DNA of 44,312 nucleotides from a virus. Positions within the stretch are counted from its first letter, which is position 1, and each line of letters starts with the position of its first letter. The stretch is from positions 1 to 44,312 of IMG/VR virus record IMGVR_UViG_3300031087_000005; one strand, given 5' to 3'. The notes under the pieces are model-generated. The model did no database searches and was not told where the DNA came from. It saw only the letters and a program-made list of their open reading frames with translations. A program made the translations under genes and the position numbers. Below, piece by piece: positions 19,792 to 37,107 of this stretch.

Positions 19792-20940
19792 TTACCAGCC
19801 GATAGAGGTACCCACGTTCCAGCCAGTTCCCTGATTTGTATCACGGGTAACTGACGCTTTGACAACTACGTTACTGGAAACGCGGGCAGATACCCCGACC
19901 GCTAACGCCTGTTGCCCTTCATATCCGCCGACTCCTGCGCCTACCGCGAACGTCTGGTACTCGGTCACCTGCGGGATAGCCGCTGAACTCAGTGCCGAAG
20001 CCGTACCGGCGTTGGCTGACTTCTTCACCTTGCCCAGTTCGCGATGCAGTGATGAGAATCCGCGCTGTGTTTCCTGTTCGAGATTACCCAGGCGTTGTTC
20101 ATGGTTGGCCAGCTGCTCGGTATGCTGCGATACGACACGATTAGTGCTGCGGATAGCATCATGGTTCGCCTGAATGTTGGCGTTAGCTGCGTCAATACGT
20201 GACTGCGCATAACCACCATTGCTGTAAAGCTGGACGATGTCGCTACTGTTCTGCGTGATTCGACCTGACAACATACGGTCGCCGTCAACGCGCTGCTGGC
20301 GATCGGAGTCCATCTGGACATGCGTATCGCGGATATCCTGTTCAGTTTTATCAGCACGCACTTCCACGCCACCGACCCGGCCATCGAGCACGCCTGCCTG
20401 CTGTTCGATACCGTCCATGCGTACCGCGCCTGCGTCGGCCTTCTCGTGTGCCTGCTGAATCCGCGTATCCTGGCCTGTATCTCGCTCTGACTGCGTGGCC
20501 AGGTTGCCACTGATCTGCGCCTGCAATGCTGCGTCACCCTTCGCCCGATCTGCATCAGCGCGGGATACTTTGGTATCAGTGTGCGCAACGCTGGTCCGGT
20601 ACGCGCTCTCTGCTGTCTTATCAGCGTAACCTTTCAGGTCAGACGTCTGTTTAGCGTCCGTGGCTGACTGCTTGGTTACGCTGTCGGCTAAGGCTTTATC
20701 CTGGCGAGCCTGATCAGCCGTGAACAGGGATTTATCCAGTTTAGTTTCCTGCAGCTTTGCGATATTGGCACGGTCTTCCAGACCCCAGGACTCTGAGTAC
20801 TTCTGCAGCGTGTTCATATGCACGTCATGCAGGCCGGCGCGCAGGTCGTCCAGCTGTTTCTGAACGGAGTTATCAGAGGTAGCAGACGCAGAGAAGCAGG
20901 CGGCGACCGATAATGACAGAACGAGTTTTTGAAGTTTCAT
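19792..20940 (-). CDS. Trimeric autotransporter adhesin-like outer-membrane protein (YadA-type anchor, coiled-coil stalk)
   Basis: Signal peptide MKLQKLVLSLSVAACFSASA. About 290 aa of Q/A/D-rich coiled coil. C-terminus 'AGTASALSSAAIPQV...FAVGAGVGGYEGQQALAVGVSARVS...VKASVTRDTNQGTGWNVGTSIGW' has the YadA-anchor pattern and a terminal aromatic residue. Confidence 0.8.
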   Translation of the reverse strand: MKLQKLVLSLSVAACFSASATSDNSVQKQLDDLRAGLHDVHMNTLQKYSESWGLEDRANIAKLQETKLDKSLFTADQARQDKALADSVTKQSATDAKQTSDLKGYADKTAESAYRTSVAHTDTKVSRADADRAKGDAALQAQISGNLATQSERDTGQDTRIQQAHEKADAGAVRMDGIEQQAGVLDGRVGGVEVRADKTEQDIRDTHVQMDSDRQQRVDGDRMLSGRITQNSSDIVQLYSNGGYAQSRIDAANANIQANHDAIRSTNRVVSQHTEQLANHEQRLGNLEQETQRGFSSLHRELGKVKKSANAGTASALSSAAIPQVTEYQTFAVGAGVGGYEGQQALAVGVSARVSSNVVVKASVTRDTNQGTGWNVGTSIGW

Positions 20941-34631: not shown

Positions 34632-34649
34632 GCCGGGCAGTAATATCAG

Positions 34650-34676
34650 AGCCCGCCGCGTGCGGGCTTTTTATTT
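34650..34676 (+). terminator. Rho-independent terminator
   Basis: AGCCCGC-cgcgt-GCGGGCT followed by TTTTATTT. Confidence 0.75.
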
Positions 34677-34685
34677 AGGTGGCGT

Positions 34686-35723
34686 ATGAATTTCTATAAC
34701 GAGTGGGACAAAGGCGCGGCTGCCTGGCTGCGGGAATTAATCAAAGCGGGGCACATCCCGCCAGGAATAGTAGATGAACGATCCATCACCGAAATTAAAA
34801 AAGAAGATCTTGCCGGGTTCACCCAGTGTCATTTCTTCTGCGGGATTGGAGGCTGGCCACTCGCACTCAGGCTCGCCGGTATCCCTGAAGAAACGCCACT
34901 GTGGACCGGAAGCCCTCCCTGCCAGCCGTTCAGCGTTGCAGGTAAACAACTCGGGCAACTTGACGAGCGACACCTCGCGCCAGCCTTTATGCGGCTCGTT
35001 GACCAGTGCCGCCCTGCAATCCTGTTTGGCGAGCAGGTTGCGGCAGCAATTGGAAAACACTGGCTCGATGATTTATTCACTGAGCTGGAAAGACAAGGCT
35101 ACGCCTGCGGGGCGGCCGTACTGCCAGCGGCAAGCGTCGGTGCCCCGCACAAACGCGATCGACTCTTCTTTGGTGCGCACAAACTGGCAAACCCCCACAG
35201 TCACATGCATTCACGAACGGTCGAAAGAAGCCACGCAGAGGCGGAAAGAATTCAGGGCATCAATAGGACGAGATTCTCTGGCTCCGGGAAACCTAGCGGA
35301 ACAGGCCAGTCTTTATCTGGCAACCTGGCCGACACCAACGACGCGGGATCACAAGGACGGGGCGGAGTGCCTGAATGTTCCTACCAACAGCCTGCTGGGG
35401 CGGGTGGTGTGGCAGGCAAACTGGCCGACGCCGTGCGCGAACAATTCGACCGGGGCGGGGCATCAGGGCCGGGACGGCGGGCACAACCTACAGACGGCGG
35501 TATCTCTGACGCAGCCAATACGCATAACGGCTTCTGGTCAGATGCTGACTGGCTCGGGTGCCGGGATGGAAAGTTCCGGCCAGTTAGACCCGGCACATTC
35601 CCGCTGGCTAATGGGATTCCCGCCAGAGTGGGACGGCTGCGCGGTTATGGCAATGCCATCGTCCCGCAAGTCGCAGCAGAATTTATCAAAGCCTTTACAG
35701 GAGCAATCAACGATGTTAACTAA
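34686..35723 (+). CDS. DNA (cytosine-5) methyltransferase (frame-0 reading; see findings for the frame anomaly)
   Basis: Motifs I FFCGIGG, IV SPPCQPFS, VI LFGEQV, VIII GAPHKRDRLFF, and X YGNAIVPQVA at the C-terminus. Confidence 0.75.
   Translation: MNFYNEWDKGAAAWLRELIKAGHIPPGIVDERSITEIKKEDLAGFTQCHFFCGIGGWPLALRLAGIPEETPLWTGSPPCQPFSVAGKQLGQLDERHLAPAFMRLVDQCRPAILFGEQVAAAIGKHWLDDLFTELERQGYACGAAVLPAASVGAPHKRDRLFFGAHKLANPHSHMHSRTVERSHAEAERIQGINRTRFSGSGKPSGTGQSLSGNLADTNDAGSQGRGGVPECSYQQPAGAGGVAGKLADAVREQFDRGGASGPGRRAQPTDGGISDAANTHNGFWSDADWLGCRDGKFRPVRPGTFPLANGIPARVGRLRGYGNAIVPQVAAEFIKAFTGAINDVN
34774..35712 (+). other. Stop-free +1 frame (313 codons) overlapping the methyltransferase gene and contiguous with the nuclease ORF
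   Basis: ORF-track ORF 34774..37107. This part encodes WQTP/WPTP/WPTP repeats and SRWLMGFPPEWD. Confidence 0.4.
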
Positions 35724-37107
35724 AAAGAAAAAAGCCGCACCAGCAGTACTGGTAAAGAAAAAAGCGCCGCCTGCTGCAGTCGCCGCGCCAGTCAAGAAAA
35801 AGAAAATAGCGCCCGCAGAGATTATCCCTGTCGTGAACGTGGCGCCAGGCCACGCGCTGCTGTCTCCGTCATACAGCAAAACCTGGCTGGCATGTGCTGC
35901 GGCACTTGCGGCAGGGCTCGATGAGCCGAACGTCAGCGGTGCGGCGGCGATAGAGGGGACGCTGTGTCATCAGGTGCTGGAGAATGTGATCAACCGGCTT
36001 ATTGATCCGCAATGCAAGCTCGACGTTAAGCTACCGGCCTGGGCGCAGATAATGAAGCCAGGTGAAGATAACCAGCGAACACCTAAGCAGATGGGGAGTG
36101 ATCGCTATCAGGGACAATCCCCCGTTGACTATATCGGCACCTGCCCGCTTCCGGATCATCCGAAGATGCAGTTCACTGCTGACCAGGCGAAACTGATCAC
36201 GCCGTTCGTTAACTACATTCGTGGCCTGATGGATGCCGGCTATACCGTGTTCCCGGAAATGCGGGTCAACCTGTCAGAAGTCCTGGGCGCTGCGAACACC
36301 TTCGGGACCGCCGACCTTATCGCATTCAAAGACGATCATCTGATTGTCGGCGATCTGAAGATGGGCCGCCATGCTGTATCACCGGGCACGCTGGACGACC
36401 TGAATACCCAGATGGGACTTTATGGAGCGGGCGTGCTGCACCGGTACCGTAAAACGAAAAACTTCCAGCAGGTGACGCTGCTGATCGCCCAGCCCCGCGC
36501 GGGTGGCCTCAAGTTCCTGGAGGATATCCCTGCTACTGCGCTGGCGGACTTTGGCAACTACGCCCGCGATCGCGCTGCTGACGCGCTGGCCTGCGTCAGC
36601 AAAGGTAAGAAGAAACTCGTCGCCGGGGATTTCAATCCGACGCCGGGCGGGTGCCAGTGGTGCCGGTTCCGCGATAAGTGCAGCGCGAAGCTGAAAGCGT
36701 CAACAGGCATTGATGAGCCGTCAGGCAATGAGATCAGCGATGAAGAGCTGTTTGCGGCTTATGAGAAGTTGCCACTGCTGGAATCGCAGATAGCTTCGAC
36801 CCGCGCTGAAGTGCTTAAGCGGCTGCTGGCAGGGCGTAAGATTGGCGGCCTTAAAGTGGTACAGGGAAAACCCGGTAACCGTAAGTGGGGAGATGAGCGC
36901 GCCGCAGAAGCCTATCTTCTGGGCAAACTGTTCGCCAAAGCCTATGAGAAAAAAGTGCTCAGCCCGACCGCCGCCGCTAAACTCCTGCCGGATGATCCCG
37001 AGCTGGAGAAGCTGATTGTGCGGCCTGAAGGTAAGCCGTCTATTGCCCAGGGCGAAGACCGCCGCGAACAGTACGGAAAAATTGAAGATAGTGATTTAGA
37101 TGATTGA
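35713..37107 (+). CDS. PD-(D/E)XK Cas4-like nuclease (DUF2800-type)
   Basis: ATG 35713 overlaps the methylase stop by 11 nt. 'GHALLSPSYSKTWLAC', 'GDLKMGRH' and C-terminal CQWCRFRDKC form a Cas4-like 4-Cys pattern. N-terminal K/A/P-rich tail. Confidence 0.8.
   Translation: MLTKKKKAAPAVLVKKKAPPAAVAAPVKKKKIAPAEIIPVVNVAPGHALLSPSYSKTWLACAAALAAGLDEPNVSGAAAIEGTLCHQVLENVINRLIDPQCKLDVKLPAWAQIMKPGEDNQRTPKQMGSDRYQGQSPVDYIGTCPLPDHPKMQFTADQAKLITPFVNYIRGLMDAGYTVFPEMRVNLSEVLGAANTFGTADLIAFKDDHLIVGDLKMGRHAVSPGTLDDLNTQMGLYGAGVLHRYRKTKNFQQVTLLIAQPRAGGLKFLEDIPATALADFGNYARDRAADALACVSKGKKKLVAGDFNPTPGGCQWCRFRDKCSAKLKASTGIDEPSGNEISDEELFAAYEKLPLLESQIASTRAEVLKRLLAGRKIGGLKVVQGKPGNRKWGDERAAEAYLLGKLFAKAYEKKVLSPTAAAKLLPDDPELEKLIVRPEGKPSIAQGEDRREQYGKIEDSDLDD

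What the first reader, a model, noticed from the sequence alone, without database searches (positions are those of the whole stretch)
34774..35712. Methyltransferase-like sequence in two overlapping frames of the C5-methylase gene
**Frame 0 (34686..35723).** It gives Dcm-type motifs I (FFCGIGG), IV (SPPCQPFS), VI (FGEQV), VIII (GAPHKRDRLFF) and X (YGNAIVPQVA, 35649-35675). Its middle, about aa 165-290, is G/R/A/S-rich low-complexity sequence using AGA/AGG/CGA/GGA codons.

**Frame +1.** It is stop-free for 313 codons. The next-longest same-strand alternative-frame ORF in this window is 187 aa. Over exactly the low-complexity stretch of frame 0 it encodes WQTP (35185), TWPTPTTRDHKDG (35326), LLGRVVWQANWPTP (35422) and SRWLMGFPPEWD (35602-35637). 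I associate that pattern with the target-recognition region and the G-F-P motif IX of phage cytosine methylases.

**Consequence.** The canonical order I-VIII / TRD / IX / X can only be assembled with two frame changes. The first is 0 to +1 near CTC TTC TTT G GTG (35163-35175), giving RDRLFF|VRTNWQTP. The second is +1 back to 0 between 35632 and 35648.

**Possible explanations.** Two compensating indel errors, programmed recoding, or genuine dual coding (overprinting).
Basis: partly seen in the sequence, partly recalled or inferred. Interest (0 to 1): 0.8.

Follow-up and report, generated by a model that had tools for sequence, protein, structure and literature searches.

The report
Methylase gene encoding two overlapping proteins
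This phage DNA-methylase gene is read in two frames: one gives the catalytic body of the enzyme and the other, nested inside it, most likely gives a separate DNA-recognition subunit, an arrangement shown experimentally for only one bacterial enzyme (M.EcoHK31I) but found here in every phage relative examined.

Summary
Frame 0 (34686-35723) encodes a C5-cytosine methylase with motifs I, IV, VI, VIII and X and a low-complexity centre. The +1 frame is stop-free from 34774 and carries W-x-T-P units plus a motif IX-like sequence (SRWLMGFPPEWD).

It is not an assembly error: the identical protein occurs in three independent assemblies, and all 87 relatives examined keep both frames open.

Selection is partitioned:
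- Frame 0 alone is constrained over residues 1-100, motif VIII and motif X.
- The +1 frame alone is constrained in the centre.
- Both are constrained in two short stretches.

Each frame also stays stop-free where its amino acids are unconstrained. No slippery site is conserved. One relative has an endonuclease domain inserted in the +1 reading while frame 0 stays open through it. Together these favour two complete polypeptides over double frameshifting.

The closest precedent is M.EcoHK31I, whose beta chain (motif IX) lies in another frame inside the alpha gene (motifs I-VIII and X). I file this as a new member of that kind. Homology to M.EcoHK31I and the requirement for both chains are untested. 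Here the variable, presumably target-recognising, region is selected in the beta frame. The window's beta frame also runs without a stop into the downstream nuclease gene.

The parts
34686..35723 (+). Alpha gene (frame 0), 345 aa. It encodes the C5-cytosine methyltransferase large-domain chain with motifs I, IV, VI, VIII and X. A Shine-Dalgarno-like AGGTGG lies at 34677-34682, and a terminator-like hairpin of the upstream gene at 34648-34670.
   Evidence: Pfam PF00145 E 8.5e-21. phrog_363 end to end, E 1.9e-85. Profile match to M.HhaI motifs I and IV-VIII. dNN/dSN 0.1-0.2 over aa 1-100 and over motif X. Terminator-like site.
34763..34776 (+). Probable start of the beta ORF: AGGA (34763-34766), two in-frame stops TAG TAG (34768-34773), then ATG 34774. 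The ATG sits on the conserved frame-0 residues V-D-E.
   Evidence: Upstream of the first +1 ATG in 64 homologues, mean anti-SD duplex energy is -4.3 against -2.97 kcal/mol at control positions; 53% against 23% are at or below -5. The window's own value is modest (-4.3). The start site is inferred, not shown.
34774..34985 (+). Beta leader (+1 frame), about 70 codons. It is kept stop-free but shows no amino-acid-level selection. It overlaps alpha motifs I-IV.
   Evidence: dNN/dNS about 1.0. In the N-terminal region, +1 stops average 0.07 per gene against 1.78 expected; 50 of 54 genes have none.
34986..35135 (+). First dual-coded stretch. Alpha aa 101-150 carries motif VI and following (FGEQV...YACGAAVLPAAS). 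Beta reads SLTSAALQSCLASRLRQQLENTGSMIYSLSWKDKATPAGRPY.
   Evidence: Both ratios are below 1 (frame 0 0.36-0.60; +1 0.51-0.59). Diversity at the frame-0 wobble position is reduced (0.41 against 0.57).
35139..35171 (+). Alpha motif VIII, GAPHKRDRLFF. Only frame 0 is under selection here.
   Evidence: No conserved slippery site follows it.
35178..35525 (+). Centre of the gene. In frame 0 it is an unconstrained low-complexity linker that is nevertheless kept open. In +1 it is an array of W-x-T-P units (WQTP 35185, WPTP 35326, NWPTP about 35428), presumed to recognise the DNA target.
   Evidence: dNN/dNS (+1) 0.32 [0.24-0.43]; dNN/dSN (frame 0) 1.12. Frame-0 stops: 0 in 52 of 52 genes against 2.62 expected. 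WPTP in +1 corresponds to LA[D/H/Y/N]x in frame 0. AlphaFold pLDDT is about 30 for alpha aa 168-323.
35526..35645 (+). Second dual-coded stretch. Alpha reads GFWSDADWLGCRDGKFRPVRPGTFPLANGIPARVGRLR. Beta reads ...ASGQMLTGSGAGMESSGQLDPAHSRWLMGFPPEWDG, with the motif IX-like sequence at 35578-35637.
   Evidence: Frame 0 0.51 [0.35-0.71] and +1 0.57 [0.40-0.85]. Nucleotides are nearly invariant across genera. The only hhalign hit of the beta profile to the HhaI family is HhaI motif IX (E 0.14). Some lineages separate the two readings by duplication.
35643..35696 (+). Alpha motif X (GYGNAIVPQVAAEFIKAF). Only frame 0 is under selection here.
   Evidence: dNN/dSN 0.07-0.21; dNN/dNS about 1.
35713..37107 (+). 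Downstream gene (DUF2800 / PD-(D/E)XK nuclease). It is in the beta frame, and no stop separates it from beta, so the stop-free stretch 34774-37107 is 777 codons.
   Evidence: The same read-through occurs in relatives L007 and L008 and in P0241.

Best explanation
The locus holds two overlapping genes that together specify one two-chain C5-cytosine DNA methyltransferase.

- **Alpha (frame 0)** is the large catalytic domain: motifs I, IV, VI and VIII, then a disordered spacer, then a conserved C-terminal piece with motif X.
- **Beta (+1)** starts at its own ATG (34774) about 29 codons into alpha. It has a dispensable leader of about 70 residues, a conserved helix-hairpin segment, a variable array of W-x-T-P units, and a motif IX-like end (QLDPAHSRWLMGFPPEW). 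These are the parts that make up the small, DNA-recognising domain in single-chain enzymes.

The two chains are proposed to associate, as M.EcoHK31I alpha and beta do, and to methylate phage DNA against host restriction.

**Shown here:** both frames are conserved and open, selection is partitioned between them, and the motif content is as stated.

**Inferred:** separate translation from 34774, association of the two chains, beta carrying target recognition, and a protective role.
For: 1. **Both frames are open in every relative examined.** Expected +1 stops are 4.5 per gene; 0.23 are observed. The +2 frame matches expectation. Relatives include Rhodobacter, Burkholderia and cyanobacterial phages.
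2. **Selection is partitioned**, as listed under parts.
3. **Each frame stays open where its amino acids are free**. A recoded single chain would not need this.
4. **No conserved slippery site** follows motif VIII.
5. **Contig L087.** A roughly 200-codon insertion reads in +1 as an endonuclease VII/HNH domain (phrog_1035, E 6.5e-26) and matches nothing in frame 0, yet frame 0 stays open through it. In the same contig the second dual-coded stretch is duplicated, and each copy keeps only one reading.
6. **The beta reading is a very large family of its own.** It gives 2368 hits and 9844 clusters at 50% identity, and matches phrog_1008. None of the 29 longest representatives carries PF00145 in the same frame.
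7. **The first +1 ATG tends to have a Shine-Dalgarno-like sequence**.
[quoted passage not shown] Alpha has motifs I-VIII and X, beta has motif IX, association of the two chains is required for activity, and up to about 41 N-terminal beta residues can be deleted before activity is lost (PMC2836561, PMC3404938).
Against: - There is no direct evidence that beta is translated, or that it binds alpha.
- AlphaFold models of each chain alone are poor (mean pLDDT 51.6 and 45.9).
- The beta profile has no Pfam, NCBIfam or PDB sequence hit, and its match to HhaI motif IX is not significant (E 0.14).
- The window's Shine-Dalgarno-like sequence for beta is only moderate.
- The window's beta frame has no stop before the next gene, so here the product would be a 777-aa fusion unless something terminates it.
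- For M.EcoHK31I the literature places the target-recognition domain in alpha, not beta.
- The M.EcoHK31I sequence could not be obtained, so homology is unverified.
Confidence: 0.72

Rival explanations
1. Both frames are translated, but beta works independently of the methylase. It could be a DNA-binding or targeting module for nucleases, or an anti-defence protein, that merely shares DNA with the methylase gene.
For: In several lineages beta is joined in frame to nuclease or other methylase domains: an endonuclease VII/HNH insertion, and C-terminal HNH, N6_N4 methylase, Dam or DUF2800/PD-(D/E)XK. One database record names a beta homologue 'restriction enzyme'. The beta profile shows no significant similarity to any solved methylase.
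Against: Beta ends in a motif IX-like sequence, which alpha lacks, and the two sets of motifs complement each other exactly. In all 87 loci examined, chosen for their alpha-type gene, beta lies inside alpha; beta-only loci were not looked for. Most C-terminal fusions look like read-through into whatever gene lies downstream. M.EcoHK31I beta is a methylase subunit.
Confidence: 0.14
2. Programmed double ribosomal frameshifting (0 to +1 after motif VIII, then back to 0 before motif X) produces one canonical chain with motifs I-VIII, a target-recognition region, IX and X.
For: The pattern of amino-acid selection (0, then +1, then 0) matches the composite chain. The window has CTC TTC TTT G at 35163-35175.
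Against: The sequence after motif VIII is not conserved: CTG TTC TTC GGC, ACG TTC TGG TTG, CTG TGG TTC GTG and others. The +1 frame is kept open about 120 codons upstream, and frame 0 is kept open through the centre. Frame 0 is itself under selection in the stretch before motif X. The duplicated copies in L087 and L023 keep each reading separately. Two efficient shifts in one gene would be unprecedented.
Confidence: 0.05
3. The +1 reading is a non-functional relic or by-product. It would be an ancestral target-recognition region thrown out of frame, or a similarity induced by conservation of frame 0. Only frame 0 is expressed.
For: Parts of the +1 similarity are by-products of frame-0 motifs: for example ASVPRT mirrors GAPH, and the leader shows no selection. 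PGAP annotates only alpha.
Against: In the centre, selection acts on +1 and not on frame 0 (0.32 against 1.12). The +1 frame has stayed open across phages of Proteobacteria and cyanobacteria. A real endonuclease domain is inserted in frame in +1.
Confidence: 0.03
4. Two compensating indel errors in the assembly split an ordinary single-frame gene.
For: None beyond the appearance of the motifs in two frames.
Against: An identical protein occurs in three independent assemblies. The same layout is seen in 87 loci, including finished phage genomes.
Confidence: 0.01

Closest known systems
M.EcoHK31I (E. coli; YGGCCR), the naturally heterodimeric C5 methyltransferase (Lee, Kam & Shaw 1995, PMID 7870574; Fung et al. 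2006, PMID 16740121; as described in PMC2836561 and PMC3404938)
   Same: The beta chain is encoded in a different reading frame inside the alpha gene. [quoted passage not shown] Part of the beta N-terminus can be removed: in M.EcoHK31I activity is lost only from deletions of about 42 residues, and here the leader of about 70 residues shows no selection.
   Different: In M.EcoHK31I the predicted target-recognition domain is assigned to alpha. Here the variable centre is selected only in the beta frame. M.EcoHK31I belongs to a restriction-modification system, whereas this is an orphan phage gene beside replication genes. The window's beta has no stop inside alpha. Sequence homology could not be tested.
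M.AquI (alpha/beta C5 methyltransferase)
   Same: It is a C5 methylase built from two polypeptides that divide the conserved motifs (PMC3404938).
   Different: The larger M.AquI subunit has motifs I-VIII plus part of the variable region, and the smaller has the rest plus motifs IX-X. No alternative-frame nesting is described for it.
Single-chain C5 methyltransferases (M.HhaI, M.HaeIII; Pfam PF00145)
   Same: Alpha aligns with M.HhaI motifs I and IV-VIII (hhalign 97.9%). Beta's C-terminus resembles HhaI motif IX, and alpha's C-terminus resembles motif X.
   Different: Here the small-domain part is in another frame. Alpha also lacks the motif II-III segment between I and IV; a similar sequence (YNEWDKGAAAWL...) sits at its N-terminus.
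Multispecific Bacillus phage C5 methyltransferases (SPR, phi3T, rho11s), recalled from my own knowledge
   Same: They are phage enzymes with tandem, exchangeable target-recognition modules between motifs VIII and IX. Here beta proteins carry 1-8 W-x-T-P units, with 3 the commonest count.
   Different: Those modules are in frame in a single chain. No sequence similarity was tested, so this is a lead only.

Membership tests
M.EcoHK31I-type two-chain C5 methyltransferase | The alpha chain has motifs I-VIII and X but no motif IX. | tested here: met
   Motifs I and IV-VIII align to M.HhaI. GYGNAIVPQVA is read directly at the C-terminus. No motif IX-like sequence is present in frame 0.
M.EcoHK31I-type two-chain C5 methyltransferase | The beta chain is encoded in a different reading frame within the alpha gene. 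| tested here: met
   The +1 ORF starts at alpha codon 29-30. It ends inside alpha in 58 of 77 homologues. In the window it starts inside alpha but has no stop until 37107.
M.EcoHK31I-type two-chain C5 methyltransferase | The beta chain carries motif IX. | tested here: inconclusive
   The only hhalign hit of the beta profile to the HhaI family pairs GQLDPAHSRWLMGFPPEWDG with RKLHPRECARVMGYPDSYKV, which is HhaI motif IX, but E is 0.14. L, P, M, G and P are identical by eye.
M.EcoHK31I-type two-chain C5 methyltransferase | Both polypeptides are made, and both are required for methylation. | not testable with these tools
   Only indirect support is available: purifying selection on both frames and a Shine-Dalgarno-like sequence with ATG.
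M.EcoHK31I-type two-chain C5 methyltransferase | Sequence homology to M.EcoHK31I alpha and beta. | not testable with these tools
Canonical single-chain C5 methyltransferase (PF00145 / TIGR00675 dcm) | Motifs I-X lie in order in one polypeptide. | tested here: not met
   PF00145 covers only aa 66-192. The TIGR00675 score is 51.8, below its cut-off of 100.65. Motif IX is in the other frame, and the motif II-III-like segment precedes motif I.
Programmed ribosomal frameshift gene | A conserved slippery site at the junction, with the second frame needed only downstream of it. | tested here: not met
   Junction sequences vary. The +1 frame is open about 120 codons upstream, and frame 0 is open through the centre.
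Multispecific phage C5 methyltransferase | Tandem target-recognition modules, each conferring one specificity. | not tested
   Only the variable number of W-x-T-P units was counted. The attempt to cluster module types failed.

The most novel reading that the evidence does not exclude
In this very large phage and prophage family, the whole small (DNA-recognising) domain of a C5 methyltransferase has moved to an overlapping reading frame as a separate subunit. That subunit would include a shuffled array of 1-8 W-x-T-P recognition units that might confer several specificities. This would be one of the longest conserved same-strand gene overlaps in tailed phages (about 250-300 codons). It is systematically half-annotated, and the beta subunit is repeatedly joined to nucleases or other methylases.
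Probability: 0.35. Interest if true: 0.8.

Novelty: new member of a known kind. Interest (0 to 1): 0.58.

Why it matters
- **Annotation.** Pipelines keep one frame and drop the other. PGAP annotates alpha only, some phage records annotate beta only, and PHROGs holds the two readings as unrelated 'DNA methyltransferase' families. If beta is a required subunit, alpha cloned alone would appear inactive or non-specific. Predictions of phage methylation specificity from alpha would then be wrong.
- **Study of overlapping genes.** The locus is a clean natural case for how overlapping genes divide constraint. It has spacer segments kept open but otherwise free, two truly dual-coded stretches, and lineages that resolved the conflict by duplication.
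- **Reach of the M.EcoHK31I design.** An architecture known from a single enzyme would extend to thousands of phage genes.

Tried and rejected
- **AlphaFold2 of beta and of alpha.** Both used alignments of close homologues and gave low confidence (pLDDT 51.6 and 45.9). I ran no fold search, because matches to such models would be meaningless.
- **Library searches with beta.** The beta sequence and profile found nothing meaningful in PDB sequences; the only profile match was a chance hit to titin, E 0.52. Pfam and NCBIfam also gave nothing.
- **Literature on 'Mte8'.** This is the GenBank label for the nested ORF in K1 phages. It appears in one genome paper, with no explanation.
- **Literature on overlapping or embedded methylase genes in phages.** Nothing relevant was found.
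- **The original M.EcoHK31I paper** is not held.
- **Single-chain alpha-beta fusions.** P0065 and P0100 join the frames at different points and are singletons, so they are probably frameshift variants. None of 29 long beta-like representatives has PF00145.
- **Pseudomonas phage PMG1.** I first took it for a beta-only case. Its alpha reading is interrupted by a single frameshift, so it is uninformative. PACT201 is scrambled.
- **Clustering W-x-T-P units into types.** Single linkage collapsed them into one cluster.
- **P0242,** a 4633-aa repeat protein, is a spurious compositional hit.

Full report
**1. What is in the sequence**

Frame 0 (34686-35723, 345 aa) begins after a terminator-like hairpin and an AGGTGG Shine-Dalgarno-like sequence. 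It carries FFCGIGG, SPPCQPFS, FGEQV, GAPHKRDRLFF and GYGNAIVPQVA. Pfam PF00145 covers only aa 66-192 (E 8.5e-21), while PHROG 363 covers the whole protein.

The +1 frame is stop-free from ATG 34774 to 37107. The downstream DUF2800/PD-(D/E)XK gene (ATG 35713) is in the same frame with no intervening stop. The +1 translation contains WQTP, WPTPTTRDHKDG, NWPTP and SRWLMGFPPEWD. It has no Pfam hit but matches PHROG 1008 (E 2.2e-38) and PHROG 31772.

**2. Not an artefact**

The identical 345-aa protein is present in three independent assemblies. Kagunavirus K1ind3 has the same layout, and GenBank annotates both ORFs there: 'C-specific methylase' and a nested 'Mte8-like protein'. The layout is also found in phages of Rhodobacter, Burkholderia, Klebsiella and a cyanobacterium, and in an E. 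coli P2-like prophage where PGAP annotates only frame 0.

The +1 product finds the following:
- 243 phage records by tblastn;
- 2368 predicted proteins;
- 9844 clusters at 50% identity.

Gene callers often pick this frame.

**3. Both frames are maintained**

I analysed 80 viral contigs found with the frame-0 protein, plus GenBank loci. In the 77 genes long enough to test:
- The +1 frame has stops only in the first 40 or so and last 20 or so codons. The +2 frame has 10-29 stops.
- Synonymous shuffles that keep the frame-0 protein predict 4.5 internal +1 stops per gene; 0.23 are observed. The +2 frame matches expectation.

All seven loci my motif filter had missed also carry the +1 ORF.

**4. 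Which frame is under selection where**

I used an OLGenie-style pairwise analysis on 70 non-identical genes. Ratios below 1 indicate purifying selection on that frame.

| Segment of alpha | Frame 0 (dNN/dSN) | +1 (dNN/dNS) | Reading |
|---|---|---|---|
| aa 1-100 | about 0.1-0.2 | about 1.0 | frame 0 only |
| aa 101-150 | 0.36-0.60 | 0.51-0.59 | both |
| motif VIII | about 0.35 | about 1 | frame 0 only |
| centre | 1.12 | 0.32 [0.24-0.43] | +1 only |
| GFW...LRG | 0.51 [0.35-0.71] | 0.57 [0.40-0.85] | both |
| motif X to end | about 0.1 | about 1.1 | frame 0 only |

A direct illustration: conserved WPTP (TGG CCN ACN CC) reads LA(D/H/Y/N)x in frame 0. Changes that are silent in +1 therefore make radical changes in frame 0. 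These estimates use related sequences and some saturated sites. The confidence intervals are bootstraps over columns.

**5. One recoded chain or two chains**

Four results argue for two complete products.

- **Each frame stays open where it is unconstrained.** From codon 45 to motif VIII, +1 stops average 0.07 against 1.78 expected. In the centre, frame-0 stops are 0 in 52 of 52 genes against 2.62 expected. The third frame matches expectation.
- **No slippery sequence is conserved after motif VIII**.
- **Frame 0 is itself constrained before motif X**.
- **Natural experiments point the same way.** Contig L087 has a roughly 200-codon insertion that reads in +1 as an endonuclease VII/HNH domain (E 6.5e-26) and as nothing recognisable in frame 0. 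Frame 0 (591 aa) stays open through it. In the same contig the second dual-coded stretch is duplicated: one copy keeps HSRWLMGFPIDWD and the other keeps FPLGTNIPARVARLRGYGNAI. L023, L043, L059 and L070 are similarly separated.

The first +1 ATG falls on conserved frame-0 dipeptides. It is often preceded by AGGAG, formed by Arg-Ser coded as AGG AGC. The enrichment for such sequences is modest but real.

**6. What the two products are**

Alpha aligns with M.HhaI motifs I and IV-VIII (hhalign 97.9%) and ends in motif X. Those are the large-domain elements.

Beta has four parts: an unconstrained leader of about 70 residues, a conserved helix-hairpin segment, 1-8 W-x-T-P units, and GQLDPAHSRWLMGFPPEWDG. 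The only hhalign match of beta to the HhaI family is HhaI motif IX. That is the right place, but the match is not significant (E 0.14).

In solved C5 methylases the small domain is the variable region plus motif IX (PMC3404938). The content of beta therefore corresponds to the small domain. This step is inference. AlphaFold models of each chain alone were too poor to test it.

**7. Comparison with what is known**

M.EcoHK31I is described as naturally heterodimeric. [quoted passage not shown] Alpha holds motifs I-VIII, X and the predicted target-recognition domain, and beta holds motif IX. The two chains must associate for activity. Deleting 42 or more residues from the beta N-terminus abolished activity, so a shorter stretch can be lost. 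Internal Met codons can serve as starts (PMC2836561; PMC3404938).

The window gene has the same architecture. It differs in three ways:
- the variable region is selected in the beta frame;
- it is an orphan phage gene;
- beta reads through into the next gene.

I could not obtain the M.EcoHK31I sequence, so homology and the requirement for both chains remain untested. I found no paper that describes this layout for the phage family.

**8. Verdict**

Programmed recoding is unlikely.

The finding is a new member of a known but rarely recognised kind. It carries an annotation lesson: half of the system is usually missing from records. It also leaves an open question about whether beta carries target recognition.

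Noticed in passing
window 35635-37107 (+): The beta (+1) frame has no stop before the downstream DUF2800/PD-(D/E)XK nuclease gene (ATG 35713), so the stop-free stretch is 777 codons. The same read-through occurs in close relatives (L007, L008, P0241). Other lineages read into Dam, N6_N4 methylase or HNH genes. In 58 of 77 homologues beta stops inside alpha. It is unknown whether a fusion protein is made.
   Followed up: partly
window 34686-34810 (+); alpha aa 1-42: Alpha lacks the motif II-III segment between motifs I and IV; M.HhaI residues 34-69 are a gap in the hhalign alignment. Its N-terminus (FYNEWDKGAAAWLRELI...DERSITEI) resembles that segment of HhaI (SNEWDKYAQEVYEMNF...GDITQV). This suggests a permuted motif order, II-III-I-IV.
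   Followed up: partly
L087 2413-4188 (metagenomic contig, ENA ERZ28617863): An endonuclease VII/HNH-like domain of about 200 codons is inserted in the beta reading, between alpha motifs VI and VII, and alpha stays open through it. The stretch before motif X is duplicated, so the two readings no longer overlap there. P0060 and P0273 are similar.
   Followed up: partly
L090 833-1501 (Pseudomonas phage PACT201); L006 (PMG1): These look like decayed copies. In PACT201, one ORF joins frame-0-type sequence (through GAPHIRE) in frame to a W-P-S-P unit, and its N-terminus switches frames. PMG1 alpha has a single frameshift near VDERSI while beta is intact (281 aa).
   Followed up: partly
L089 1395-1811 ('Dunaliella viridis virus SI2', a tailed-phage record): This is a deletion derivative. 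Alpha is reduced to 138 aa, with its N-terminus fused to the linker and motif X and with motifs I-VIII missing. A 104-aa beta remnant is still open in +1.
   Followed up: no
window 19792-20940 (-): A 382-aa gene rich in coiled-coil-like repeats holds a nested 187-aa alternative-frame ORF (20025-20588), within a 202-codon stop-free stretch. This is the second-longest same-strand overlap in the window. I did not test it for conservation.
   Followed up: no
L093 3292-3892 (Logan SRR23272318 contig): Here the beta frame continues about 200 codons past the alpha stop, through a region where no other gene was called: a Pro/Glu/Ala-rich stretch followed by a region without compositional bias. It is either a C-terminal extension of beta or an uncalled gene in the same frame.
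   Followed up: no
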